From assembly GCF_964213995.1 (NCBI RefSeq), contig NW_027590121.1:1426001-1490000 (forward strand): a DNA stretch of 64,000 nucleotides. The letters run 5' to 3'. This stretch comes from Mustelus asterias. Its lineage: Eukaryota. The notes beneath the pieces were generated by a model. That model saw nothing but the letters and a program-made list of their open reading frames with translations. It did not search any database and had not been told where the DNA came from. The position numbers were made by a program, and so were the translations under genes. The first letter of the stretch is position 1; every line of letters begins with the position of its first letter. Shown here one piece after another: positions 7,520-63,919 of this stretch.

Positions 7520-9180
7520 AAGCATGGATATTAAGGAACTCGAGGAAATAAATCGTGATGACTTGAGGAGTGCACATATAACAGAGAAGGTGGTGCTGGA
7601 CGTTTTAAAGCGCATCAAGGTAGATAAATCCCCGGGAACTGATGAAGTGTATCCCAGGACATCGTGGAAGGCTAGGGAGGAAATTATGGGTCCCCTAGCA
7701 GAGATATTTGAATCATCAATAGTCACAGGTGAGGTGCCTGAAGATTGGAGGGTGGCAAATGTTGTGCCTTTGTTTAAAAAGGGCTGCAGGTAAAAGTCTG
7801 GGAACGAGAGGCCGGTGAGCCTCACATCTGTAGGGGGTAAGTTGTTAGAAGGTATTTTGAGAGTCAGGATCTGCAGGAATTTAGAGATGCAAGGACTGAT
7901 TAGGGGCAGTCAGCAAGGCTTTGAGAGTGGAAAATCATGTCTCACAAATTTGATTGAGTTTTTTGAAGAGGTAACTAAGAAGGTAAATGAGGGCAGTGCA
8001 GTTGATGTTGTCTACATGGATTTTAGCAAGGCCTTTGACAAGGTACCATATGGTAGGTTGTTGCATAAGGTTAAATCTCACGGGATCCAGGGTAAGGTAG
8101 CCAAATGGATACAAAATTGGCTTGGTGACAGAAGACAGAGGATAGTTGTGGAGGGTTGTTTTTCAAACTGGAGGTCTGTTATTTGTCATTTATATTAATG
8201 ATTTGGATGAGAATTTAGGAATGATTTGGATGAGAATTTAGTAGGCATGGTTAGTAAGTTTATAGATGACACCAAGATTGGTAGCATAGTGATCAGTGAG
8301 GAAGGTTATTGAGGATTGCGATGGGATCCTGATCAATTGGGCCAGTGGGCTGACGAATGGCAGATGGAGTTTAATTTAGACAAATGCGAAGTGATGCATT
8401 TTGGTAGATTGAACCAGGGCAGGACTTACTCAGTTAATGGTTGGGCATTGGGGAGAGATACAGAACAAAGAGATCTAGAGGTACAGGTTCATAGCTCCTT
8501 GAAAGTGGAGTCACAGGTGGACAGAGTGGTGAAGAAGGCATTCGGCATGCTTGGTTTCATTGGTCAGAACAGTGAATACAGGAGTTGGGACGTCTTGTTG
8601 AAGTTGTAAAAGACATTGGTAATGCCACACTTGGAATACTGTGTACAGTTCTGGTCACCCTATTATAGAAAGGATATTATTAAACTAGAAAGAGTGCAGA
8701 AAAGATTTACTAGGATGCTACCATGACTTGATGGTTTGAGTTATAAGGAGAGGCTGGATAGACTGGGAATTTTTTCCTCTGGAGTGTAGGAGGCTTAGGA
8801 GTGAACTTATAGAGGTCTGTAAAATAATGAGGGGCATAGATCTGCTGGTCAATATCTTTTCCCAAAGGTAGGGGAGTTTAAAACTAAAGGGCATATGTTT
8901 AAGGTGAGAGGGAAGAGATATAAAAGGGTCCAGAGGGGCAATTTCTTTCACACAGAGTGTTGTGAGTGTCTGGAATAAGCTGCCAGAGGTAGTAGTAGAG
9001 GCGGGTACAATTTTGTCTTTTAAAAAGCATTTAGACAGTTACATGGGTAAGATGGGTATAGAGGGATATGCGCCAAACACGGGCAATTGGGACTAGCTTC
9101 GGGGTTAAAAAAAGGGGCAGCATGGACAAGCTGGGCCAAAGGGCTTGCTTCCATGCTGTAAACCTGTATGACTCTATGAC
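7520..9180 (+). mobile_element. CR1-type LINE, 5'-truncated, degenerate
   Basis: KSPGTDEVYPR, DFSKAFDKVP and WQMEFNLDKC motifs, broken by stops and frameshifts. Tail ctgtatgactctatgact. Confidence 0.92.
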
Positions 9181-22222: not shown

Positions 22223-24047
22223 TTGCAGACATGGACATCAAGGCCTGTATGGGTCTCCAGGCCATCATGCACACATCATGATAGGGAGGATGGAGATGGT
22301 GTTGCCAGCCATGTACATGATGAACAGATTCATGGGCAGCTGTTTCAATGGGCCCAAGGCGGTGTCCCAGCAGGACTGAAAACAGAAAGTGAGCAGGGTA
22401 TCAGTAAAGGGGGCCGGTTTGGGGAGGCCATATGCTGATCTTATACCCAGGCCTGGAAGTAAGGATGACGATTAACCCTTTAACACACAGGCTGCTGTGG
22501 TTCACCAAGGTACTTCACCACCGTGGACAAACCAGGGGCGTTGTCAGCCACACACTAAAGACACATTCAAATCCAACTTACTTTCTCAACCAGGATCCGG
22601 TCTGTTTCTTGGACGCAGATGTCCGGTAGCTGTTTGTCCGAATATACGACTGGGTACATGGAGTCTCTCTGGCCACACTGTTGATCACGGCTCCTATGAG
22701 AAACAGAAAACACAAGTGGGTCACCCTTTCAAGACCTTCTTTAAAGAGGGAGTCTCTCTGTTGACGACCCCAACATGGTGGCAATAGTGCCAGCACGAAC
22801 TAAAGCTTGGGCAAACCTCAGACACACACTGCCGTTGTGTCCACTGAACTGCCACGGGAATGGAGGGCTGCAGAAGTGGATTTAGTGTGAATTGATAATC
22901 AGGGTGCCAATCCGCTTGCCCTCCATTTAGGGACAAAGTGACAAATCACCACATGTACCAAATTATCTGGGGGACCTGGGGTGGAGGGTGCTGCACACAG
23001 CAGTGCCGTGCAACCGTAGGTTTTTCCGGTACACGGGCTCCCAAGACTGCCCTTTCTGTGGCCTCGTGGAGTCCGTGGACCATGTCTACGTTCTGTGTTT
23101 TAGGCTGCACACCCTTTTTGGTTTCCTCAAACACCTTTTACTGATGTTTTGTTTGCACTTCAGTCCCACGCTCCTGATCTACGGGCACCTGGTGCGGAGA
23201 GGGGCGGGTCGGGATGCCGACCTCCTCGTGAACCTGCTCCTGGGCCTGGCGAGACGCGCCATCAATAGGTCCAGGCAGCGGGCGATCGACGGGGCCGTCC
23301 ATCCCGACTGTCTGCCCCTCTACCGCGGCTACATTCGCGGCCAGGTGTCTCTGGAGAGGGAGCATGCGGTGTCCACGGGCGCGGTTGACGCCTTCCGCGA
23401 CCGCTGGGCGCCGCAGGGGCTGGGGTGTATTATCGACCCCGATAATCACCTTTTGGTTTGACGTTTTAAGTTTCCTTTCGACTTTGATTTTGGTTCGAGC
23501 TGTTCCCCCCTTCCTTTTGGGGAGCCGCCCCTTTTACTTTGTCCCTAAGTTAATTTGAGTTTGTTTACTTGATTGGTGCCGAAAGAGCTACCAAATTGTA
23601 TCTTGAAAACAAACACTGCGGGACATTGAGAGAGATCCAGTTCAGCACCCGGCCCTGGAAACGAGCAATCGTTCCTCCAACCACCACCGCAGTTGGCATC
23701 TGATCAGGTGGAGGGGCTGAAACCAAGATGGCATCTCAGGGTCATGACCTGGGGAAAAGATGCCAAGTGGGGTCTGAGTGATTTCTGGGGGATTTGAGGG
23801 GCTGCTTTGTGCTGAGGAGCTCGGTGAGGGGTAAAAGAGGCGCGAAAAACCCGGGGTTGGGAAGTTTTGGGTTGGTGCCACGTCCCCGGGTCAGTGTGCG
23901 GTGGCGTCCCCTCGGGAGAGGCGGGCTGACCCGGCTTGTCGCTTACTCGAGACCCCGGCTGCCCGCGCGGCCTCCGCACCTGCTGGTGCCGCTCAGGGTC
24001 CGCTTGTGCCAGCACGCGCGGTTGTCAAGCCCCGCCCCTGCAGCCAT
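22223..24047 (-). pseudogene. EMC4: EMC4 (ER membrane complex subunit 4) partial pseudogene, exons 1-3
   Basis: Exon 1 is 24047-23980 (MAAGAGLDNRACWHKRTLSGTS, phase 2; alternative donor at 23947). Exon 2 is 22693-22582 ([28 protein letters not shown]). Exon 3 is 22375-22223 ([49 protein letters not shown]) with a 1-nt deletion near 22273. All introns are GT-AG. No exon 4 or 5 was found. Confidence 0.9.
22950..23585 (+). mobile_element. Tx1/L1-clade LINE 3' end, inside EMC4 intron 1
   Basis: ORF 22988..23461 has the C-terminal zinc motif CPFCGLVESVDHVYVLC and ends in FRDRW, followed by a T-rich tail. Confidence 0.75.
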
Positions 24048-24814: not shown

Positions 24815-25915
24815 TCAGAGAGTTCATAAAAGAGAGCTAGGCGATGATAGGGATCTAGATGAGTATACAGCTTGTAGGAAGGGACTTAAGAAAGAAATTA
24901 GGAGAGCAAGAAGCGGTCACGAGAAGGCCTTGGCAGGTAAGATTAAGGAGAACCCTGAGGCGTTCTATAAATATGTGAAGAGTAAAAGGATGAGATGTGA
25001 AGGAATAGGACCTATAAAATATGAAGGTGAGAAAGTCTGTACAGAACTGGAAGAAATAGCAGAGGTGCTTAATGAATATTTTACCTCGGTATTCACGGTG
25101 GAAAAAGACATGGGTGGTTGTACTACAGGACTGAGGTGGACTGAAAAGATTGAGTATGAGGACATTAAGAAAGAGGATGTGTTGGAAATTTTGAATAGCA
25201 TCAAGATAGATAAGTTGCTGGGACCGGGTGGGATGTACCCCAGGTTACTGTGGGAGGCGAGGGAAGAGACTGCAGAGCCTCTGGCGATGATCTTTGCATC
25301 ATCGATGGAGACGGGAGAGGTTCTGGAGGATTGGAGGATTGCGGATGTGGTTCCTATATTGAAGAAAGGGAATAGGGATAGCCCAGGAAATTACCGACTG
25401 GTGAGTCTAACCTCAGTGGTTGGTAAGTTGATGGAGAAAATCCTGAGGGACAGGATTTATGAACATTTAGAGAAGTTTAGGATGCTCAAACATAGTCAGC
25501 ACGGCTTTGTCAAAGGCAAATCGTGCCTTACGAGCCTGGTGGAGTTCTTTGAAAATGTGACTGAACACATTGACGAAGGAAAGGCGGTAGATGTGGTTTA
25601 CATGGACTTCAGCAAGGCATTCGATAAGGTCCCCCATGCAAGACTTCTCGAGAAAGTGAGAGGGCATGGGATCCAAGGGGCTGTTGCCTTGTGGATTCAG
25701 ATCTGGCTTGCCTGCAGAAGGCAGAGAGTGGTTGTAGATGGGACTTTTTCCGAATGGAGGTCGGTCACCAGTGGATTGCCCCAGGGATCTGTTCTGGGAC
25801 CCTTGATGTTTGTCATTTTCATAAATGACTGGATGAGGAAGTGGAGGGATGGGTTGGTAAGTTTGCCGACGACACGAAAGTTGATGGTGTTGTGGATAGT
25901 TTGGAGGGATGTCTG
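24815..25915 (+). mobile_element. CR1-type LINE RT fragment
   Basis: ORF 24705..25979 carries QHGFVKGKSCLT, DFSKAFDKVPH and PQGSVLGP, and is truncated shortly after the FADD region. Confidence 0.93.
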
Positions 25916-26989
25916 CCTGGGTATTGACAATACCAGAATAAATAATAAGCATCGTCGGTATAGGTGCAGATTAAAGTGACATCTTCTCCCTCTGTCTGTG
26001 TGAGTGAGGATTCCCGCTGAGTAACAGAATCTCCATCGTTCAGATCGAGAACACAAGGTTAACAAACAAAAGTCATTGATTAAAAGTTCACTTGAAGCGA
26101 GGGTGAAAAATCAGTGTAACATAAAAGAAGGTATTAAATTCTAACACATTCACTCCAACTGATCTATCTCCCCTTTCACAATCCCTCAGAGAATCCTCCC
26201 TCCTGCCTCATCTCAAATACCTCTATCCCTTTCTACCTCAGCGGGTTCTCTAGTTTGCCCTCAAATGCATCGTTACTCCTCTCCTCAACAGTTCATTGTG
26301 TCAGTGTGAGTCACTTCTACAGAACTCTTTCAAAAAAAGTTTCTCTGTAATTCCCAGTTGATCTTTTTGTTTCACTTAGATTTATGGGACACAGATATGT
26401 AATTCTCCCCAGATGGAATCATCCTCTCCCCGTCCAGCACACTAAATCTCTTTGATTTGCTTTATTATTATTTAAATTGATTTGATCATCATTGTCCAGA
26501 AATCAGTCAGATTACCTGATTGTCTTCTCGTCCAGAGAGAGAGTAATCATAATTTTTATAATGCTTTCTGATAGCTCTCATCTTCCAACCCTGGTACCAT
26601 CTCTTTAAATCGCCTTTGCTGTGCGCTTTTAGAACCTGTTCTCCAAAAGACCAAAGCCACAAAGATTCATTTGTGCTCTAAGGCAGGTCTAATACTTGTT
26701 TAACACGAAAGTCCTGCTTTTCAAACTTATTCCTCCATAAATTAAACTCCCTTTTACTCTTTTTCAAGTTTCAAACTTCTTACCGACAATGAATGTCACC
26801 CAGAAAACAGCGAGAAGGGAGCTCCGCATCGCTGCTGCTGCTCCTGGATTCCCGAGACTTGTGTCTCCGAAAGTTGCAGAATATCGAACGAGATAAAGCT
26901 GAGAGCAGTGGATGTCACATCCTACAGAATCAATGGGAGGAAGAGCTGAGATCACTGGATCGAGAATTAAGAGAATATTAGATAACACC

Positions 26990-27652: not shown

Positions 27653-27691
27653 GGTTTTTGTACGGGGTTTTAGCTTTAATCTAACGCTGTG
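27653..27691 (-). other. 23-RSS
   Basis: CACAGCG, 23-nt spacer, ACAAAAACC. Confidence 0.95.
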
Positions 27692-28225
27692 CCTCACTGC
27701 ACAGTAATAGACCGCCCCGTCCTGCACTCTGAGGGTGCTTATATTGAGGTAACCGTTCTGTTTAGACGCGTCAGAAGCCGCCAGATATCGTCCTGAAACT
27801 TCATCTTCCTTCACTGTTAATGCTTTGGTAATAATCCATGTCGCTGGTTGTGTCGGTTTCTGCTGATACCATTGCATGCTGTACATACCCTTGTCTGTAT
27901 ATTCACAACCCAACTGCACTGAATCCCCTTCTGATGCGGTTATTGGCAGCGATGACTGCTACTGGATCTGCGCACAGTCCGCCTGTGAAGGTAGAGGAAT
28001 GAAATATCAAGAGTTAATGTTTGTATCTGCGATTGTTTCCGCAGCACCCGCCCCTCCCCCCCCCCCCACCCCCACCTCCCCCACCCCACCTCCCCCACCC
28101 CCATTCACCCCTCACATCGATAATTGTGATGGTTAATTATATTACCATCTAATGTGTTTATCTGGCTTGATGTACGTTACCCAGTGCTTACCGTGCAAGA
28201 GCGCCGTCAGGAAGATCAGAAACAT
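27692..28225 (-). pseudogene. TCR alpha/delta-type V segment with a frameshift at the start of FR1
   Basis: Leader exon 28225-28192 (MFLIFLTALLH|G) and V exon 27982-27692. The leader frame reads GLCADPV, but the V frame (QSSLP...LGCEY...WYQQ...DGAVYYCAVR) is offset near 27960 (GTA G CAG). Confidence 0.85.
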
Positions 28226-34296: not shown

Positions 34297-34809
34297 ATGT
34301 AGGGTCTCGTTTTGTATTAAGTTCTCACTGTTTCAGCTCTCTTACTTGGTCAGCCAACAATTTACACAATCTTCCTCTTGCAAGCAACTTCGACATTAAT
34401 TTAATTTCACTTTGTTGCTAATTACAATGTGATCCGTTCCCTAATGCTATTATTTACAATCAAATGATAATGACATCTTAACGCTTGATGTTTCTAAATT
34501 TCTGCAGGTGTCATTGCTGCAGACTCGATCTCACAGGAGCCGGTGATAGCGATGAAGTTTAAAGGAGACTCGGTGCCCATTAAGTTCAACTGCTCAGCAA
34601 CTGGTGCATATTATATTCAATTTTACCGCCAGGACAGGGAGAAAGCTCCCACCTTCTTGATCCACACTCCCAATTATGGAGGTATTTCCAGTGCCGAGGA
34701 CGTGGGGCTCCGATTTTCTGTATCCATCGACAGGTCCAAAAGCAAGGGGAAGCTCACCACCCGTGAGCTGTGGCTGTCTGATAGCGCGGTGTATTGCTGG
34801 GGACTGAGA
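34297..34809 (+). pseudogene. TCR alpha/delta-type V pseudogene
   Basis: Leader 34297-34348 has two stops (M*GLVLY*VLTVSALLL|G). V exon from 34508 reads ADSISQEP...KFNC...FYRQ...SDSAVYCW, with both canonical Cys lost. RSS 34810-34848 is AACAGTG, 23 nt, ATAAATAAA (CAC broken). Confidence 0.85.
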
Positions 34810-35936
34810 AACAGTGACAGAAACCAGAGGGAGCCTCGTATAAATAAAACTGCCGCAGAGTGACAGGGTGAATGGAGCAGCGAATGGTAAAATTCTTTAT
34901 ACGCAGCATGATTCACTCTGTGGTCCCTGTATACATTTTCAGTATTGCTGATATTGACAACAGGAGAGTCGATGGCTTTATGGTATTCGCGCGAGGTTAT
35001 TCAGAAACTCAGCTAATGTTGTGCGGACCCGATTCAATGAAAACAATATATATAATTAAGAATCTACTGATGACCATGAAACCATTGTCGGAAAAAACAA
35101 TCTTGTTCAATAATGTACTTAAGGGAAGGAAACCTGCCGTCCTTACCTGGTCCGGCCTACGTGTGACTCCAGAGGCACAGCAATGTGGTTGGCTCTCAAC
35201 TCGTGATGGGGAATAAATGCTGGCCAACCAGTGGCACCCATGTCAGACACACAGAAAAAGGAAATCACTGGAATCTCTGTTGAAACTGTCCTGATAATAA
35301 GGCTAATGGACATATTGAGGAAAAGCAATGATATAATTATTTAGCCTTCCTTAACTTCCGTGTCACAATAAGAAAATAAGCAGTTTTTTGTAGAATGTCA
35401 ATTATTGAGCATGTTCAAAAAATTCAGTAGCTTCATGGAGCATCATCACATCAAGGGTTATGCAGATAGCGCTGGAAAGTGGCGTTCAGGCTGATCAGCC
35501 CCGATCTAACTGAATGGCGACACCAAATCGAAGGACCGAATGGCCGACTGCTGCTCCCATGTTCTTTTACCCCATTTTTCGATATTCCTCCCCAAGTCAA
35601 TCGCTAAATCTGGAAGTTCTCGCTGTAGGATAGTGACTTTACTGTTAGTTTGTTTACTGTCCGTTATCTCACCACTTGGGTGTCACACAGCACCACTGGG
35701 GACAGTTGAAATACTGTGTACAGTTCTGGTCACTGTACTAAATTAGAAAGAGTGCAGAAATTATCTACTAGGATGTACGCTTTACAATGAACGCTTTAAA
35801 AATTTGAAGTTCAAGATAAGTTAGTAAATTGAAAGTGACGGTTTTCTTCTTGAATTGACTGACATGGGCTTTCAGTCGAAACACAGTGCAGTTGAACATT
35901 GCAGATAGGCCGGTTTGCTGGAGTGTGCAGTCTTCT

Positions 35937-40899: not shown

Positions 40900-41240
40900 G
40901 GTTTCTTGTGTGGGCTCGTGTGGTTGTGAAGCATTGTGATCCTCAATCCGCAGATATAGAGGGCGCTGTCTTTCGTCTCCACTGCAGAAATTGCAAAGGG
41001 AAAATCTGATATTGACTGAACCGACGAGCATCGAATTTTCTTTTGAAAAACTCGGCATCACAGCGTCTGAAGTTATCCGATACAATATAAAATAGAGTGG
41101 CTGTTTCGGTTACAGCAAGTACCCATAGCGACCCGGTTCAACAGAACTGGAGTTATGATTACAGTTCAATTCCAGATTAGCTCCCGCAGTAGCCTTCAAT
41201 TCATGTTGCCCCTATGTGACCGAACTCTCTTAGATTTGAC
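40900..41240 (-). pseudogene. Heavily decayed TCR V pseudogene with RSS (not evident from the ORF track)
   Basis: Reverse strand reads ESSVT*GQHELKATAGANLELNCNHNSSSVEPGRYGYLL*PKQPLYFILYR, then after frameshifts ISAVETKDSALYICGLR. It is followed by CACAATG (40938-40932), 22 nt, ACAAGAAAC. The acceptor is mutated (cactg). Confidence 0.8.
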
Positions 41241-41749
41241 CAGTGAGATAATATATTAAACATCAGGTGACCTTATTGATTACTTGCATTCCCTCCAACA
41301 TAAGGAACACCAATCAAAATCTAAATATGACACATCGGATAAAGAAAAACGTCCCGATATTTACATATTACAAGGGGCAGAATGACAGAATGTTCACATG
41401 TTCCAGAATATAAATAAGAATGGACATCAGGAAGAGCTCAACAGGCATCATCTCTAAACTGCTGTCAAGGTATTACAGCAGCTCACGTGAATGTTTTCTT
41501 CACCACGTGCAGAAATTGAAGTTGTTTTTATTCCTTGGGACACGATCAACCAATTGATGCCCTGAAAGTTGCTCAGCTACAAACAGCAGATATGTTCACG
41601 TGAGAGTGAGCAAAAAACAAACACAGTTACCGTCAGTCCAGTTGAACAGCAAAGAACGCTTTAAGTGCGTGTTTACGTCACGGTCTAGTACAGGACTCGT
41701 GACACACAACCCAGTGCTTTATAAATAGCTACATGACCCTGCTGCATTT

Positions 41750-51720: not shown

Positions 51721-53381
51721 GCATACGATTTGGTTTCTGAGAAAAGGGTGGCAAAAAAGAGTTAGGTTTTCTGGTAAGTTCTGTGCTGAGCTGTAAATTG
51801 TTCGACAGCAAAAGGAATTATTAAAAATGTGAGACTATCAGTTATTTTACCTCGTGTTGAAACAATGACCAACTTTGAATGGATCAGGTTCACACTAGGA
51901 TTATGTAAGGAAAATAAATCTATTGTAAGGAACGGACAAGATAATGAGAGTTATATATTTGGGTGGACAGTAGGACATTGCAGATTTCCTGCTGTGCTGG
52001 GTGGTCTAAAAGAAGTAGGGTCGGCCAATCTTGTCTGACATACTGTTGGTCATATTTTTTATGCAGCAAAATTAGCCATAGTTTGTGCGAAGTACTGGGA
52101 TTGCGAAGTCCACTTTTGGTCTTTATTGCAGTTTGTTTGGCAGCCTAAAATATTGAACAGAACTTTCCCATTCCCTTTGTCGTTACCTGGAGCCTCGAAC
52201 CGCAGCCACAGAGTGTATCGGTCAGAGAGAGTTTTTGTGAGTGAATGTCAACAAACAACGAACAGTTTTCAAAAGTTTATAAGAGTGATTTTAAATCGAT
52301 CCCCTTTCACAGAGCTCCCACCATATTCATTGTCCTTCCGAGAGACTGTCCATTGTCTGTCACTGTGCCCGGTAATTCTGAAAATGACAGAACTGGAAAC
52401 TAAGCATTACTGAATGAAAACATAGCTTTAAATGCAAAGAACAGAAGGTGATGACGGAGGAATGGCTTGCTTAAATCAAAAACGATCGCTCTTTGTGTAT
52501 CGTGTATGTCTGCTTGGATATTGTCAGTGGGAGTTATCATATTGCAACCCGATCCTCGGTTACTGGACTGAAGAAAGCTGTCGATCTGAGTCGCCTCTTC
52601 AGATGAGACATTTCACCGACGGCCAGCCATCCTGACCAGGGTGTTGCTACAGAATTCCATGAACTTCTGAAATAAGAGCGGAAATTAGAAAACCAAAGAA
52701 ATCACCCGCACTGAACTCCCCATTCCTTCGTTGAGGAGAGAGGGTTGTGGCTGCTCCACTGAACAGAACAATATCGTCCCCCATTCCCTCCTCAACAGAC
52801 TGAGGTGAGAGGGGATTTCAAATCCATGTCACACATCCAATGCAGAGACAGATAATTGACAGCTCCCTCTTTCTACTTGAGCGTTATTCACACAGCACAC
52901 CACCAGAAACCATAGATCCGGGCCGCCCATCAATGACCTCCTGCAGCAATAACAGAAAATGCTGGAACATCTCAGCAGACCTCACAGAATCTGTGGGGAG
53001 AGAATAGAGCCAACGCTTCCTGTCTGGATTACCGTTCGTCAGAGCTCATGGTCACTGCTCTCTGCCAATCAACGTTAGGTCACATAAAGAGGGACATACC
53101 CAAACTGTGGATCGCAACACCCAGCTGTGTCGCGGGAGTCCATTCTGGGGTTGGGAACTCCGGGGCCGCAATAGCTGACGAGCTTTGATTGAATGTTCAC
53201 AGCTTTCTGTCGCCTTTAAATCTTTCAGTCTGTTTTTTTTAACGTTGGGCATGATCTAATTTACCGCCGGTCGGGTCCGAAGAATTTCAGTGCAATTCTG
53301 AGATCCAGCTTCCCAGTGTCGTCCAGCTCTGCAGTCTCCATCTCCCCGTCATGTGAGCCATCAGCTCCAGGCAGCAGAGCG

Positions 53382-53854
53382 ATGGAAATCTTCTTTGTTT
53401 TCACCCTGTGTGTCTGTTAACCCCGTGAGTACCGACCAAACTTACCCACATTGTGTGGATTGAATATAAAACTGCCCCAGTCCACCCCAATTACAGACAC
53501 TGTCTGGGGTTTTAGTCCCGTTGTGTGGTTCGGCTCTGATGGTCCATTAAACTCTGTGATTAATTTCCAGGGTCATTCAGTCAGTCAGTGACACAGAGCC
53601 CAGCAGCAGTGACCAGGAAGGAATATCAGTCTCTCACCGTCACCTGTGTTTTCTATGGCGGTTATTACTATTTGGAAAATGGTGATTTCTTCAGACAAAC
53701 CCAGACTGGAACAGAGCGGGAGAGGATCACCAGCGGAGGGAGATTTGTTGTGTCGGTGAATAAAGCAGAAAAGACATTTTCACTGGAAATTCGGGACTTG
53801 AGAGTTGAAGACACCGCCACCTATTACTGTGAAGCTCATTACAAATACGAAACA
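53382..53854 (+). pseudogene. NAR-TCR-type (VNAR-like) V segment with a stop codon in the leader
   Basis: Leader 53382-53424 reads MEIFFVFTLCVC*P (TAA at 53418-53420). V exon from 53571 is open: QSVTQSP...TC...FFRQ...ERITSGGRFVVSVNKAEKTFSLEIRDLRVEDTATYYC. There are 60 residues between the Cys and no CDR2, as in VNAR. Confidence 0.85.
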
Positions 53855-53892
53855 CACAGTGGTCGGCCTCGACTTCCCGCGGTACAAAAACT
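53855..53892 (+). other. 22-bp-spacer RSS
   Basis: CACAGTG, 22 nt, ACAAAAACT. Confidence 0.93.
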
Positions 53893-54160
53893 CTCACTGC
53901 AAAGTTTCACATAAACACATTAAAAATCGGACCTATTCTTTCTGAAACACTCAGTTTCACCTCACATGCTCTGTTCCATAATCTCGTTTATAATGAGACG
54001 GGATTATTACAGTTTGCACTTTGAGTTTTATAAATACGGAGCGCGGGTGGTGATATCTTTTCCGGGATTGATGTTGTTGAATGGAGATTGGGAATGACTG
54101 ACCCCAGTTCCAACCCATCTCAAAATATAGGGTCCTGTTCCCTCAGGTTCCCTCAGATGG

Positions 54161-54201
54161 TACCATCTGACGAAGGAGCAGTGCTCCGAAAGCTTGTGGT
54201 A
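54161..54201 (+). ncRNA. Minimal type-I hammerhead ribozyme motif in a Penelope terminal fragment (54161-54292)
   Basis: taccat-CTGACGA-a-ggagc-agt-gctcc-GAAA-gc-TT-gtggta: 6-bp stem I, 5-bp stem II and palindromic AGCT in place of stem III. Confidence 0.7.
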
Positions 54202-54291
54202 TTTGTTACCAAATAAACCTGTTGGACTTTAACCTGGTGTTGTGAGACTTCTTACCGTGTTCCCCCAGTCCAACGCCGGCATCTCCACATC

Positions 54292-55287
54292 ATGACTAGT
54301 GGTGTTCCGCAGGGCTCTGCTCTGGGACCTCTGCTGTTTCTGATATATATAAATGATTTGGAGGAAGGTGTAGCTGGTGTGATCAGTAAGTTTGTGGACG
54401 ACACAAAGATTGCTGGAGTTGCGGATAGTGATGAACATGATCAGAGAATGCAGCAGGATATAGATAGGCTGGAACATTGGGCGGAGAAATGGCAGATGGA
54501 ATTTAATTCAGATAAATGCGAAGTGATGCATTTCGGTAGATCTAATGTAAGGGGGAGCTATGCAATAAATGGCAGAGCCATCAGGAGTATAGACACACAG
54601 AGGGACCTGGGTGCACAAGTCCACAGATCCTTTAAGATGGCAGCACAGGTGGAGAGGGTGGTCAAGAAGGCATATGGCATGCTTGCCTTTATTGGACGGG
54701 GCATAGAATATAAAAGTTGGCATATGATGTTGCGGCTGTATAGAACGTTGCTTAGGCCAAATTTGGAATACTGCATCCAGTTCTGGTCGCCACACTACCA
54801 AAAGGACGTGGAGGCTTTGGAGAGAGTACAGAGGAGGTTTACCAAGATGTTGCCTGGTATTATCTATGAGGAGAGATTGGGTAAACTGGGGATGTTCTCC
54901 CTGGAAAGACGGAGGATGAGGGGCGACCGAATAGAGGTGTATAAAATTATGAAGGGCATAGATAGAGTGAACAGTGGGAAATTTTTTCCCAGGTCGGAGG
55001 TGACGAACACAAGGGGGTCACAGGTTCAAGGTGAGGGGGGCAAGGTTCAACACAGATGTCAGGGGGACGTATTTTACACAGAGGGTGGTGGGGGCCTGGA
55101 ATGCACTCCCAAGCAAGGTGATTGAGGCGGACACGCTGGGATCGTTTAAGACTAGATAGCCACATGAACAGACTGGGAATAGAGGGATACAAACGAATGG
55201 TCTAGTTGGGCACATGAGTGGCGCAGGCTTGGAGGGCCGAAGGGCCTGTTCCTGTGCTGTATTGTTCTTTGTTCTTTGTTCTTTGTT
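54292..55287 (+). mobile_element. CR1-type LINE 3' end
   Basis: ORF 54292..55125 and a (TTCTTTG)n tail. Confidence 0.93.
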
Positions 55288-55289
55288 CA

Positions 55290-56030
55290 ATGTGGTCATG
55301 GCTGATCCAGGACTTCAGTGCCATATTCCTCCTTTTCCAAAAACCCTTGGTGTCATTAAAATCTAAAAAAAACAATCGATTTCCTTCTAGAATATATTCA
55401 GTGACTTCGCCTCCACAGCCTTCTGTGGCAGCTGATTTCCAAAGGTACATTACCCTTGCAGTGAAGAAAATTTCTCTCATCTCAGTCCTAAATATCCCAT
55501 TTCCTGACACTGCACCCCCTGGATCTAGACGTCCCAACCGTGGAAAACATCCTTCCCGCATCTAAACTGTCCAGCTCTCATAGAATGTTATACGGTTCAA
55601 TCAGATCTTCTCTCATCCTTCTAGATTCTAGTGATTACAAGCCCAGTCCAACCAATCTCTCATAGCTCAGTCCCACCAACCCCGGTATCAGCCTAGTGAA
55701 GGTTCACTGTACTCCCTCGATGGCAAGTATGTCCGTGCTTACCCAATGAGACCAAAACTGCATTCAATAATCCAGGTGTGAACTCAACAAGGTCCTGTAG
55801 TAAGACATCCCTACTTCTGAATTTAAATCCTTTTGCAATGAAGGCCAACACCTCATTTGCCTTTCCAATTGCTTGCTGCACCAGCTTTTCTACCTTCACT
55901 GATTGGTGTTGAAGATCCCTTTGTACATCCACTCCTCCCAATATATCATCGTTTAAATGATACTTTTCCTTTATTTTTTCATACTGAGCTTTATAACTTC
56001 ACATTTAGCTACATTGTTCTATATCCGCCA
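55290..56030 (-). mobile_element. Older CR1-type LINE 3' end
   Basis: ORFs 55693..55941 and 55202..55561 carry decayed CR1 motifs. Confidence 0.8.
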
Positions 56031-56034
56031 TATG

Positions 56035-56803
56035 GAATTGGCAGATGGAATTTAATCCAGATAAATGCGAAGTGATCCATTTTGGAAGAACTAATGTAGG
56101 GGGGAATTATACAATAAATGGCAGAGCCATCAAGGGTATAAAAACACAGAGGGACCTAGGTGTGCAAGTCCACAAATCCTTGAAGGTGGCAGCACAGGTG
56201 GAGAAGGTGGTGAAGAAGGCATATGGTATGCTTGCCTTTATAGGTCGGGGTATAGAGTATAAAAGCTGGAGTCTGATGTTGCAGCTGTATAGAACACTGG
56301 TTAGGCCACATTTGGAGCACTGCATCCAGTTCTGGTCGCCCCACTCCCAGAAGGACGTGGGGGCTTTAGAGAGAGTGCAGAGAAGGTTTATCAGGGTGTT
56401 GCCTGAGGAGAGATTGGGTAAACTGGGCTTGTTCTCCCTGGAAAGACGGAGAATGAGGGGAGACCTAATAGAGGTGTACAAAATTATGAAGGGTATAGAT
56501 AGGGTGAACAGTGGGAAGCTTTTTCCCAGGTCGGAGGTGATGATCATGAGGGTTCACGGGCTCAAGGTGAGAGGGGCGAGGTATAACTCAGATATCAGAG
56601 GGATGTTTTTTACACAGAGAATGGTGGGGGCCTGGATTGCGCTGCCAAGTAGACATGCTGGCATCGTTTAAGACTTATCTGGTTAGTCACATGAGCAGTC
56701 TGGGAATGGAGGGATACAAACGAATGGTCTAGTTGGACCAATGAGCGGCACAGGCTTGGAGGGCCGAAGGGCCTGTTTCCAGTGCTGTACTGTTCTTTGT
56801 TCT
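56035..56803 (+). mobile_element. CR1-type LINE 3' end
   Basis: ORF 56045..56671. Confidence 0.92.
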
Positions 56804-57102
56804 AAAGTTTATTTATTAGTCACAAGTAAGGCTTACATTACCCTACAATGAAGGTACTGTGAAAATCCCCTGGTCGCTACACTCCACTGCCTGTTCGGGT
56901 ACACAGGGAAAATTTAGCATAGTCAATGCATCGAACCAGCACGTCTTTCAAACTGTGGGAAGAAACTGGAGCACCCGGAGGAAACCCATGCAGATACGGG
57001 GAGAACGTGCAAACTCCACACAGACAGTGACCCAAGCTGGGGTTCGAACCTGGGTCCCTGACACTGTGAAGCAGCAGTGCTAACCACTGTGCCACTGTGC
57101 TG
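56804..57102 (-). mobile_element. tRNA-derived shark SINE
   Basis: Homologous to 797-1082. Confidence 0.8.
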
Positions 57103-57264
57103 TGACAGGATTGTTGTCGGTGCAAGCTCCTGAGTCTAGTTACTATGTTTCTATATCGATGTTTCTATGCACTATGGAGGATCCATGATGTGGAGATGCC
57201 GGCGTTGTACAGGGGTAGGCAAAGTTAGAAGTCTCACAGCACTAAGTCAGTCAAACGGGTGACA

Positions 57265-57299
57265 TATCTGATGAAGGAACAGCGTTCCGAAAGCTCGTG
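57265..57299 (+). ncRNA. Hammerhead ribozyme motif in an inverted Penelope-end pair (57187-57352)
   Basis: CTGATGA-a-ggaac-agc-gttcc-GAAA-gc-TC-gtg; stem I is weak. Confidence 0.5.
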
Positions 57300-57389
57300 A
57301 TTCCAAATATATCTGCTGGTTTTTAACCCGGTGTTGTGAGAATTCTTACTGTGGAAGATGCCAGTGGTGTTGACCCTAACAGAACACAT

Positions 57390-58385
57390 AATCTCAGTCT
57401 TAAATTAGCGCTCGTTTATTCTGAGAGTATGCCCTCTGTCCCTACACTCTCCCACGAGGGGAAACATCCTCTCAGCATTTACACTCTCAAGCCCCTCAAT
57501 AATCCCATATGTTTCACTAACATCACATCCCATTTTTCTAAATTCCAGTGAGTAGAGACACAACCTGTTTAATATTTCCTCATAAGACAATCCCTCCGTA
57601 CCGGGGATCAGCCTTGTGAACCTTCTCTGAACTACCTCCAATGAAATAATATATGTCCTCAAATAAAGAGACGAAAGCTGCTTACGGAACTCCAGATGTG
57701 GTCTCACCAGTACCTTGTACAGTTGCAGCAAGACTTCCCTATTCTTACAATCCAACATCTCATTAGCCTTCCTGATTACCTGCTGCATATGTCTGCTCAT
57801 TTTCTGTATTTCATGTACAAGTACCCCTAAGTCCCTTTGTGCGGCACCTTTACACAGCTTCCCTATTTGCATAATACTCTGTTCTTTTGTTCTCCCTTCC
57901 AAAATGAACATTTTCATTTTTCCCCACATTAAACTCCCTTTTCGAACTTACCGCCGAATTAAAAAACTTATCAATATCTCTCTCAACTATTTATTTCCCT
58001 GTCGTAACTTGCCTTTCCACCTATGTTTGTGTCTGCAGCTTTTGCTACAGTATATATGCTCCCTCCCTCCAAGTCACTAACATTTATTGTATGCAGTTGT
58101 CCGCCAGGCACTAATTCCTCTGGAACCCCACCAGTACACGTCGCAAAACTGAAAACCCTTTATCCCAAATTGCTGTTTCTTGCCCATCAGCCAATTCCCT
58201 TCTATTCCAATATACTACCATGAACACCATGGGCTCTTATGTGATGAGTTAACATTTTGTGAGGTACCTTGTCGAACGTCTTCTGGAAGTCCAAACTGAA
58301 CACATATACTGATTCCCCTCTATCCACTCTGGATGAGACTTCCTCGAAGAACTCTAATACATTAGTTAGACATGATTTCTCTTTT
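57390..58385 (-). mobile_element. Older CR1-type LINE fragment
   Basis: KSCLTNVLEFFEEV...DFQKTFDKVPH and LYKVLVRPHLE motifs. Confidence 0.85.
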
Positions 58386-59222
58386 CTTTCCAATAAATTA
58401 TGCCATTTCAATTCCTACCTTGTTACTTACAATGAAACGAATCTTCTTAAAAGGACATCGGTGATTGTGTTGTTTCCGATCACTGACAGCCCCATTGTGA
58501 CATCTTTCAGGAGCTCATCCCTATTGGCTTTGGCGATGTTCACAAGTGACTTTCTAATTGGCATGCTTGGATTGGCGCAGTCTGTTCAATCAGATTTCGA
58601 ATGGGTGTGTGTGTGTGTGGGGGGGGGGGGGGGAGGGAGGGGGGAGGGGGGGGGGGAGGGGGGGGGGAAGGAGGGAGGTGGGGAGGGGGGAGTGGGTGGT
58701 CACTCCTGTTTGATAATTGACATTCCAAAACAAGGAAAATAAATGTTAGAAATAAATCCTGTCTCTGTGGATTATCTGGATTATCTGGAGATGGAAGATG
58801 TTTCGGAGAACTTTTCCAAGGAAGCATTGGTAGGCCGAATGGCCTCAGCCGGTGCTCCAGGATTCTATGATTCTCGTTGCTTCATGCCCCAACCGCTCGA
58901 TTTGTCGGTAGAAACCTGAATAGTGAGCAGGTGCTGAATGGTCAGAGACTTTTGTGGATTCAACCGTCGCTATTTCCGCTCCATTCACTCCGAGTGCAGC
59001 TGAGAGTCACCGCAAACGTCACTCAATATTGAGTCTGCCGTATCCCCGCCCATTGCTTCCGTTTGCTGCTCTCACTCTGACCTGATTGTGTGATTGGACA
59101 GATTGCTGCCGCTGCTCCATTCCACTCATTGGTTGGATCAGCAGTGCAGTGAGCGGAGATCTGTATGGTTGTCTCTCACAGAGGATTTCCATCACGGCAG
59201 AGTTACAGACCCAGGAAGGATC

Positions 59223-59851
59223 ATGGGGAACCGTCCTGCTTCGATTCTCATCATTATTTCAGTTCTTAGTAAGTAACTCCTGGGGCAAAGGGTGTCAAAG
59301 GATATGGGGGGAAGGTGAGAACAGGTTATGGAATTGGATAATCAGCCGTAATCATAATGAATGGCCGAACAGGCTCTAAGTGCCGAATGGCAAACCCTGC
59401 TCCTATTCCCCAAGTTCTATATATTTCCTTCCCTGTAATGCCGGATATCATTGCTGGTAAAATATGAGTGATGGTTAAATGACAATTTGGTTTATAAATA
59501 TTAGGCTGCAGCTGATTGTTTTTACCTTTACTATAATTTTACATTAGACTGGAGTCACCAAGACACAGTGGAGCAGCCGGTTGGCGAAAAAACAGTTCAA
59601 GAGGAAAGTAATGTCACAATAACCTGCAAATTTAAGACAAGTGATTCCAACCCTTATGTGTACTGGTACAGCCAGAGTCCCGGGCAGTCTCCACAGTATA
59701 TGCTTCACATTCTGGGTGTGAAAATGTATAGACACGCCGACATTAGCGACCGCTTTTCAGCTACACTAAATAAAACTGCCAAGATCACCGAGCTGACGAT
59801 CGGCAACACATTCATGGCTGACAGTGCGGTATATTTCTGTTCCTTGGAGTC
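59223..59851 (+). CDS. TCR alpha/delta-type V segment, potentially functional
   Basis: Leader 59223-59268 (MGNRPASILIIISVL|N) splices in frame to the V exon from 59548 (WSHQDTVEQP...TC...YWYSQ...DSAVYFCSLE). Canonical Cys/Trp/Cys are intact. CCAAT boxes lie upstream. Confidence 0.9.
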
Positions 59852-59889
59852 CACACTGCTACAGATATAGCGAGACCCATACAAGAACA
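59852..59889 (+). other. 22-bp-spacer RSS
   Basis: CACACTG, 22 nt, ACAAGAACA. Confidence 0.8.
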
Positions 59890-63607: not shown

Positions 63608-63646
63608 GGTTTTTGTACGGCCCTGTATGGTATTTGCTACATTGTG
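63608..63646 (-). other. 23-RSS
   Basis: CACAATG, 23 nt, ACAAAAACC. Confidence 0.95.
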
Positions 63647-63919
63647 CCTCCATTGCACAGAAATAGGTGGCGGTGTCTGTCAGCCGAGCTTCACTAACAT
63701 TCATAACGCTGTGGTTCTCTGAGAAAGTATGCCGAGCCGTGATCCTGCCCTGATCGCTGGTGCCGCTCACCAGGTGCTGCACGGTTCTGTCTAGATTTTG
63801 TCTGTACCATTGAAGGACCTTTCCAGCTCCTGTGGTTGAACAGTTCAACGATGCAGTGGCTCCCTCGGTAACAACCACTGACTCCGGAGACTGTGATAGC
63901 TCTTTACTGCCAGCGGCAT
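63647..63919 (-). CDS. TCR alpha-like V exon, open frame (leader outside the window)
   Basis: Acceptor ttcccag|AT, then KELSQSPESVVVTEGATASLNC...LQWYRQ...DTATYFCAME. Confidence 0.88.

What the first reader, a model, noticed from the sequence alone, without database searches (positions are those of the whole stretch)
53382..59222. Orphan NAR-TCR (VNAR-like) V with no visible D-J-supporting-V cassette and a possible lost interdomain cysteine
Seen: CDR2-less VNAR-type domain (60 aa between Cys, FFRQ in place of WYR), strong RSS, a long Tyr-rich germline CDR3 start (CEAHYKYET) and Tyr-rich CDR1. There is a TAA in the leader, and TAT (Tyr) at 53624-53626 in FR1 is one transition from Cys. Established: NAR-TCR is a doubly rearranging TCR delta chain; its NAR V rearranges to its own D and J, splices to a leaderless supporting V delta, and has an extra FR1 Cys. 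Here the next 5 kb is mostly LINE/SINE with no D or J that I can find, and the next V has its own leader. Inference: either a decayed cassette, or a NAR V that became a free-standing V able to join TCR delta D/J directly as a single-V chain before its leader mutated.
Basis: partly seen in the sequence, partly recalled or inferred. Interest (0 to 1): 0.7.

Follow-up and report, generated by a model that had tools for sequence, protein, structure and literature searches.

The report
Stranded shark NAR-TCR V gene segment
This is the antibody-like tip segment of a shark two-domain T-cell receptor gene that has lost the rest of its gene cassette and the cysteine predicted to tie it to its partner domain; this copy carries a stop codon and is likely a decaying relic, although two near-identical copies keep an open frame and could in principle be used on their own.

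Summary
The V at 53571-53854 groups with NAR-TCR Vs and keeps a canonical 22-spacer RSS, but has no D, J or supporting V. All 62 other NAR-TCR Vs examined in this genome keep a J. Codon 53624 is the FR1 cysteine position: Cys in 59 of those 62 and in 62 of 65 database homologs, Tyr here.

New here: about 250 bases of the V-D spacer survive, then break into repeats fused to the flank of an ordinary V-delta. Three 97.7-99% identical copies exist. Only this one has the leader stop, which short-read contigs of two samples do not show.

Decay is favoured (0.7): the copies differ by 6 replacement and 2 silent changes (neutral expectation 5.8:2.2), a conserved TATA-like box is lost, the Tyr recurs in two broken paralogs, and no D/J-delta or C-delta was found on the three contigs. 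Free-standing use stays open (0.2): a paralog's V-RSS is joined to a D-delta RSS elsewhere in the assembly. Expression could not be tested. The scan earlier noted the multiplied delta clusters and pre-joined V-D cassettes on other DNA, but not this orphan.

The parts
53352..53358 (+). Position of a conserved AT-rich (TATA-like) box 30 bases before the ATG; reads TGTGAGC here
   Evidence: TATAAAC or a close AT-rich variant in nearly all other NAR-TCR Vs read. TGTGA occurs only in the 3 orphan copies and in 2 copies of one broken family (L048, L049). Its role as a promoter element is inferred.
53382..53424 (+). Leader exon, MEIFFVFTLCVC*P, with an in-frame TAA at 53418-53420
   Evidence: Sister copies read GTA (Val) and paralogs TTA (Leu) at this codon. 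No contig of runs X1-X3 shows A at 53419.
53425..53570 (+). Leader intron, GT...AG intact
53571..53854 (+). NAR-TCR-type V exon, open, lacking CDR2
   Evidence: Nested in the NAR-TCR V clade in DNA and protein trees.
53624..53626 (+). TAT (Tyr) at the a-b loop cysteine position of NAR-TCR V
   Evidence: TGT in 59 of 62 other NAR-TCR Vs of this genome, TAT in 2 broken ones, 1 not covered. Cys in 62 of 65 database homologs.
53855..53892 (+). RSS, CACAGTG-22-ACAAAAACT; same 22-base spacer as unjoined paralogs
53893..54146 (+). Relic of the V-D spacer, ending roughly 100-130 bases short of where paralogs carry the D's 5' RSS
   Evidence: 71-75% identical to the spacers of cassette-bearing paralogs
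54137..54169 (.). Breakpoint: 10-base tandem duplication (54137-54156), then a 16-base palindrome (54154-54169) running into a truncated repeat; no heptamer
   Evidence: Bridged by contigs in runs X1 and X2 (one sample) and X3 (a second sample).
54164..57125 (.). Repeat fill: short high-copy repeat (54164-54299) and two LINE-type reverse-transcriptase fragments (54293-55279, 56035-56803)
   Evidence: The SINE and LINE labels are recalled from motif and copy number; no repeat library was searched.
57126..59222 (+). Upstream flank of an ordinary V-delta-type family, fused behind the stranded V
   Evidence: 89-94% identical to the flanks of V paralogs on C112, C138, C71 and C131, which have no NAR V in the 10-20 kb fetched upstream
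59223..59889 (+). Next V: own leader (59223-59268), exon 59548-59851, RSS CACACTG-22-ACAAGAACA; a conventional TCR V, not a supporting V
   Evidence: No CDR1 Cys; falls outside the supporting-V clade. Frameshifted by a 19-base deletion in the C325 copy.

Best explanation
This NAR-TCR V segment has lost its D, J and supporting V and its FR1 cysteine, and it is likely a decaying relic of a cassette broken by a germline deletion or rearrangement that was probably not made by RAG. Steps: (1, shown) the cassette ends inside the V-D spacer, and repeats join it to the flank of an unrelated V-delta. (2, inferred) The break was repaired by ordinary end-joining or template switching, since it has a small duplication and a palindrome and no heptamer. 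(3, inferred) This V lineage worked in a full cassette for most of its history, which is why its framework still looks selected; no intact parent cassette was found in the assembly. (4, shown) The stranded block was then copied at least twice. (5, inferred) Without a J and a splice partner it can no longer make a two-V NAR-TCR chain, so selection relaxed: Cys to Tyr, loss of the TATA-like box, neutral drift among copies and, in this copy, a leader stop.
For: Only the 3 orphan copies lack a J; all 62 other NAR-TCR Vs keep one within 9 kb. The spacer relic and breakpoint are mapped and bridged in two samples. Among the three copies the exon has 8 substitutions in 282 bases (2.8%) against 211 in about 9,700 bases of the aligned block (2.2%, summed by hand from the bins). 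Six are replacements and 2 silent, over 206 and 76 sites. TAT at this codon also occurs in two frameshifted paralogs. The TATA-like box is altered. No C-delta match on C89, C128 or C325 among 19 matches, no D/J-delta match, and J-alpha matches only on C546 and C71 (40 of 72 candidates scored). Several neighbouring V segments in the window are broken.
Against: Framework dN/dS against 17 intact-looking paralogs is 0.30 (this copy), 0.46 and 0.49 (sisters). That is close to 0.37 between intact groups and at or below the range for 9 broken or cassette-damaged copies, 0.40-0.84. Reading frame, splice sites and RSS are intact in all three copies, and the leader is open in two. Only 6 framework or CDR3-edge residues differ from all 17 paralogs, and 3 of them are conservative. 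Eight substitutions give little statistical power. The contigs are unplaced, so distance to D/J is unknown.
Confidence: 0.7

Rival explanations
1. The open copies (C128, C325) are working free-standing V segments. Their 22-RSS would join a 12-RSS D-delta or a J directly, giving a single-V TCR chain with a NAR-type tip. Loss of the now unpaired cysteine would then have been favoured, and only the window copy is dead.
For: Open leader, exon, splice sites and RSS in 2 of 3 copies. Framework dN/dS is like that of intact paralogs. The 12/23 rule allows the join (established). On C110 (L068:7691) a paralog's V 22-RSS is fused heptamer to heptamer with a 12-RSS that matches the D-delta 5' RSS and flank at 41 of 42 bases, so this pairing has happened at least once (one place in the genome). 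Sharks put Ig V segments on TCR-delta D-J-C (PMC3457774 and PMC5931798, passages).
Against: Neutral-looking drift among copies, altered TATA-like box, and no D/J-delta or C-delta on these contigs. Tyr is just the transition from TGT and recurs in pseudogenes, whereas IgNAR-type Vs mostly have Gly there. FR2 keeps the charged NAR-type sequence (RQTQTGTERER), so pairing with V-gamma would likely be poor (inference, not modelled). No contig of four other shark runs shows the Tyr codon.
Confidence: 0.2
2. The picture is partly an assembly product: the three copies are uncollapsed haplotypes or mis-joins, and the missing cassette or the stop is an error.
For: All three copies lie on unplaced contigs, none on the 20-Mb contig C71. 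The TAA is absent from the contigs of runs X1-X3. The assembly holds many duplicated and rearranged pieces of this locus.
Against: Short-read contigs of two samples bridge V, RSS, spacer and repeat (53801-54189 in X1, 53799-54192 in X3), and X1 carries A at 53625. The three copies share the junction, differ at 1-2% of sites spread evenly, and have different flanks beyond a 33-51 kb shared block. The window copy has 46 private substitutions over 9.7 kb, so it looks like a distinct haplotype or paralog rather than a one-base slip.
Confidence: 0.07
3. The stranded V is an intermediate of the kind proposed for the origin of IgNAR: a NAR V freed from its TCR cassette that joins by inversion to the D of a nearby IgH cluster.
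For: A V-D-D-J IgH cluster with open constant exons lies on the opposite strand on C89; its D 12-RSS is 33 kb from the orphan's RSS and in the same orientation. PMC12227049 (section 6) proposes a transfer of NARTCR V to an IgW cluster.
Against: The copy next to the complete cluster is the one with the stop. On C128 only the constant exons were found nearby, and on C325 none. The cluster keeps CH1 and so would need a light chain, which a NAR V is not known to bind (established, recalled). The four-C-exon layout suggests IgM rather than IgW (recalled).
Confidence: 0.03

Closest known systems
NAR-TCR, the doubly rearranging TCR-delta of cartilaginous fish (Criscitiello 2006, not held; features read in passages of PMC1845163)
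   Same: Leader plus CDR2-less V lacking the Trp of WYRK; 77-89% DNA identity in leader and exon to intact cassettes of this genome; same 22-spacer RSS; relic of the V-D spacer.
   Different: No D, J or leaderless supporting V; a-b loop Cys replaced by Tyr; TATA-like box altered; stop in this copy's leader; no C-delta found on its contig.
IgNAR V (VNAR)
   Same: Single-domain, CDR2-less fold family; best PDB matches; also lacks the a-b loop Cys.
   Different: Groups with NAR-TCR V, not with the two IgNAR-type Vs on C71; FFRQ rather than WYRK/WFRK; no D-D-D-J-C cluster.
Ig-type V segments used directly on shark TCR-delta (IgM/IgW trans-rearrangements, TAILV)
   Same: Precedent for a non-TCR V joining D-delta-J-delta as a single-V chain (PMC3457774, PMC5931798 passages; TAILV mostly recalled).
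   Different: Those are VH-type domains with CDR2 and a pairing face, and are shown as transcripts. This V is NAR-type and has no transcript evidence.
V pseudogenes and relics in segmentally duplicated antigen-receptor loci (birth and death)
   Same: Copy-specific stop, drift among recent copies, broken neighbours.
   Different: The exon, splice sites and RSS are still intact in all three copies, and it is the only J-less NAR V lineage among those examined.

Membership tests
NAR-TCR V segment | V domain of the IgNAR type, without CDR2 | tested here: met
   60 residues between the cysteines; best PDB hits are VNARs
NAR-TCR V segment | Falls in the NAR-TCR V clade, apart from IgNAR V and conventional TCR V | tested here: met
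   DNA tree 100/100; protein tree 93/80 for NAR-TCR V and 100/99 for NAR-TCR plus IgNAR. The comparison Vs are labelled by anatomy, not by curated names.
NAR-TCR V segment | Lacks the Trp of the WYRK motif (PMC1845163) | tested here: met
   FFRQ
NAR-TCR V segment | Cys in the a-b loop (PMC1845163) | tested here: not met
   Tyr; Cys in 59 of 62 paralogs and 62 of 65 homologs
NAR-TCR V segment | Open leader peptide | tested here: not met
   TAA in this copy; open in the C128 and C325 copies
NAR-TCR cassette | Own D and J behind the V | tested here: not met
NAR-TCR cassette | Leaderless supporting V-delta with a CDR1 Cys downstream | tested here: not met
   The next V has a leader, no CDR1 Cys, and groups elsewhere
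NAR-TCR cassette | Linked D-delta, J-delta and C-delta | tested here: not met
   None found on C89, C128 or C325; the contigs are unplaced, so linkage beyond their ends is open
IgNAR V | IgNAR clade and V-D-D-D-J-C cluster | tested here: not met
Functional free-standing TCR V | RSS able to pair with a 12-RSS | tested here: met
   Canonical heptamer, nonamer with 1 mismatch, 22-base spacer; a paralog's RSS of this type is found joined to a D-delta RSS
Functional free-standing TCR V | Purifying selection since the cassette was lost | tested here: inconclusive
   Neutral among copies (6:2) but few changes; pairwise framework dN/dS 0.30-0.49 mixes the periods before and after the loss
Functional free-standing TCR V | Found rearranged and in frame in T-cell transcripts | not testable with these tools
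   Needs repertoire reads from lymphoid tissue
Functional free-standing TCR V | Pairs with V-gamma or V-beta | not tested
   No model was built; a V-J joined domain would be needed

The most novel reading that the evidence does not exclude
Two open copies of a NAR-TCR V that shed its cassette and its interdomain cysteine act as free-standing segments and give single-V T-cell receptor chains with a VNAR-like tip. This would be a third use of the mobile NAR V and a living model of the step by which it moved between TCR and Ig genes.
Probability: 0.2. Interest if true: 0.65.

Novelty: new variant of a known kind. Interest (0 to 1): 0.3.

Why it matters
As a relic it is a clean, mapped example of how a NAR-TCR cassette dies, and it shows that the a-b loop cysteine is lost when the partner domain is gone, which fits the proposed interdomain disulfide. 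If the open copies are used, a NAR V could serve without a supporting V. That bears on the open question of how the NAR V moved between TCR-delta and IgNAR, and one PCR on thymus cDNA would test it.

Tried and rejected
Search for sequencing runs: no RNA holder listed, so expression is untested. Contigs of four other shark runs laid at 82% likeness showed only Cys-type codons at 53625 and no cover of the junction; contigs show presence, not absence, so this is weak. Protein searches found nothing above 86% identity to the orphan among near-length (5 hits) or longer (65 hits) proteins, and no NAR V joined straight to a TCR J-C; the named ones are mostly automatic gene models. RAG-made break: rejected, no heptamer at the junction. 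Deletion to the repeat that follows J in cassette L016: rejected, the sequence behind that repeat does not match the window. Next V as a supporting V that gained a leader: rejected. A divergent C-delta near the orphan: a second query found the same 19 places. The first J-alpha search was swamped by a repeat and was repeated with a short probe. Somatic tandem mutation as the source of GT/TA at 53418-9: not needed, since paralogs read TTA, one step from both TAA and GTA. No branch-specific dN/dS was computed, so the timing of relaxed selection rests on pairwise values. The primary papers (Criscitiello 2006 and 2010, Deiss 2019, Ott 2021) are not held. Seven literature searches listed nothing on a cassette-less NAR-TCR V, but those unheld papers and unread supplements could describe one.
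Full report
Observation. The window holds a leader exon at 53382-53424 with an in-frame TAA, an intact intron, an open V exon at 53571-53854 and an RSS CACAGTG-22-ACAAAAACT. The domain has 60 residues between its cysteines and FFRQ in place of WYRQ, and its best solved relatives are VNARs. Named proteins from Mustelus asterias are identical to paralogs read from this genome (for example P0008 and the V of L003), so the window is likely from that smooth-hound shark.

Family. A search of the genome gave 82 matches (150 of 818 candidates scored). I fetched loci holding 65 NAR-TCR-type V exons, counting the window, and 2 IgNAR-type ones; five matched places were not covered. Intact paralogs show the cassette: V with a 22-RSS, a 12/12 D about 430 bases on, a J with a 23-RSS and a DGSGT motif, then a leaderless V with a CDR1 cysteine 2.4-6 kb downstream. 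PMC1845163 (passages read) gives the marks of NAR-TCR V as a leader, a Cys in the a-b loop and no Trp in WYRK, and of the partner V as no leader and a CDR1 Cys, with a putative interdomain disulfide. The window's V nests among these NAR-TCR Vs in DNA and protein trees, apart from IgNAR and conventional Vs.

The cysteine. Codon 53624 aligns with the Cys of TRKEC. It is TGT in 59 of the 62 other NAR-TCR Vs, TAT in 2 (both frameshifted, L013 minus and L063 plus) and not covered in 1. It is Cys in 62 of 65 longer database homologs; the other three are one Phe and two that do not align there. In VNAR structures the aligned residue is mostly Gly.

The missing cassette. No D, J, D-J spacer or supporting-V probe matched the window or the next 50 kb of contig, while each probe hit 15-24 other loci. 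RSS and J-motif scans of 53893-59222 were empty. All 62 other Vs keep a J within 9 kb, including broken ones. Homology to the paralogs' V-D spacer runs to about 54146 and stops. At the break lie a 10-base tandem duplication and a 16-base palindrome, then a truncated high-copy repeat, with no heptamer. From 57126 on, the DNA is 89-94% identical to the flank of ordinary V paralogs that have no NAR V upstream. The next V has its own leader and no CDR1 Cys. The locus is therefore a fusion of a cassette's 5' end to an unrelated V unit. Short-read contigs from two samples bridge the junction.

Three copies. C325 (L001) and C128 (L002) carry the same arrangement: Tyr, no D or J, same junction. They share a 33-51 kb block with the window at about 96-99.8% identity and differ in their flanks; C128 and C325 go on matching each other beyond it. 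That suggests at least two loci. Both have an open leader with GTA at codon 13. Paralogs read TTA, one step from either GTA or TAA. In runs X1, X2 and X3 all contig depth at 53419 reads T, so the stop is not shown there, though contigs drop rare variants.

Selection. Against 17 intact-looking paralogs the framework dN/dS is 0.30, 0.46 and 0.49 for the three copies, 0.37 between intact groups and 0.40-0.84 for 9 broken or cassette-damaged copies (pairs are not independent and gene conversion is likely). This speaks against long decay. But the orphan's spacer is as far from the cassettes (71-75%) as cassette groups are from one another, and no closer spacer exists in the assembly. The lineage is thus old, while the fusion partner's 94% match to its paralogs suggests a later break (inference). 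Since the copies split, the exon has 6 replacement and 2 silent changes over 206 and 76 sites, at 2.8% against 2.2% for the whole aligned block. That is neutral, on small numbers. The upstream 139 bases differ from intact paralogs by 20-21%, against 12% among them, and a conserved TATAAAC-type box reads TGTGAGC.

Access to D and J. The assembly has 19 C-delta exon matches on 17 contigs, none on C89, C128 or C325. D/J-delta matches follow the same clusters, and J-alpha arrays lie on C546 and C71. The contigs are unplaced, and V segments can act over long distances (established), so this lowers but does not remove the chance of use. In favour of use, L068 holds a perfect signal joint between a paralog's V 22-RSS and a 12-RSS matching the D-delta 5' RSS at 41 of 42 bases, found once in the genome. 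Whether it is germline or somatic is unknown. An IgH V-D-D-J cluster with open constant exons lies 33 kb from the orphan's RSS on C89, which echoes the NARTCR-to-IgW transfer proposed in PMC12227049 (section 6 read); here it is a side reading.

Literature and earlier notes. Seen as passages: PMC1845163, PMC3457774, PMC6795676, PMC5931798, PMC3964593 and PMC5278385; PMC12227049 as passages and section 6. No supplements were read. The primary NAR-TCR papers are not held. Searches listed no description of a cassette-less NAR-TCR V, which is weak given those gaps. Earlier scan notes cover the multiplied delta clusters and pre-joined V-D cassettes in this genome, not this orphan.

Verdict. A real, well-defined stranded NAR-TCR V. 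It works like a NAR-TCR V by descent but fails membership of the NAR-TCR cassette on D, J, supporting V and cysteine. Most likely a relic (0.7). Free-standing use by the open sisters is possible and cheap to test (0.2). Interest 0.3.

Noticed in passing
L068:7691-7704 (G000:C110:113.7 kb): Heptamer-to-heptamer signal joint between a NAR V 22-RSS and a D-delta-type 12-RSS, next to an inverted V-RSS/D/J-RSS segment whose J-RSS is fused to the V coding end (hybrid-type joint); one copy in the genome.
   Followed up: partly
L014:1766-7529 (G000:C122): A 5.8-kb inversion in a NAR-TCR cassette, 99.5% identical to L015, with a coding joint between the supporting V and the cassette's D and a perfect 12/23 signal joint at 7523-7536. 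A RAG product, germline or somatic.
   Followed up: partly
G000 C71:7.14, 11.04, 12.27 Mb and 16 other contigs: 19 C-delta exon matches (82-100% identical), those examined with their own D-J set behind a NAR-TCR cassette: a cluster-type TCR-delta layout. Already noted by the scan.
   Followed up: partly
L006-L009, L013, L018, L020, L037, L040, L061-L065, L072-L075: NAR Vs ending in a 12-RSS with no separate D, that is, pre-joined V-D. Already noted by the scan.
   Followed up: no
L003:6640-6700, L033-L036: Supporting Vs already joined to a D-delta, followed by a 23-RSS and J-delta segments.
   Followed up: no
L004-L020, behind supporting Vs: Tandem 61-base units, each carrying a 23-RSS, repeated up to five times after the supporting V.
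   Followed up: no
L006, L009, L013, L061-L064: Head-to-head pairs of NAR-TCR cassettes 8-11 kb apart, one intact-looking and one broken.
   Followed up: no
window 27691-27990 (-), 25897-26031 (-), 34522-34812 (+), 40938-41250 (-), about 22330-22674 (+), 63646-63915 (-): Other TCR V segments or relics. The 27.7-kb V has an in-frame TAG near its start, the 41-kb and 22.6-kb ones are decayed, the 26-kb one is a fragment, the 34.5-kb one lacks key residues, and the 63.6-kb V is open here but interrupted on C325.
   Followed up: partly
L028-L030 (G000:C89:1497.9-1513.6 kb, minus strand): IgH cluster with V, two Ds, J and open constant exons, likely IgM (label recalled), about 8-24 kb beyond the window's end.
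   Followed up: partly
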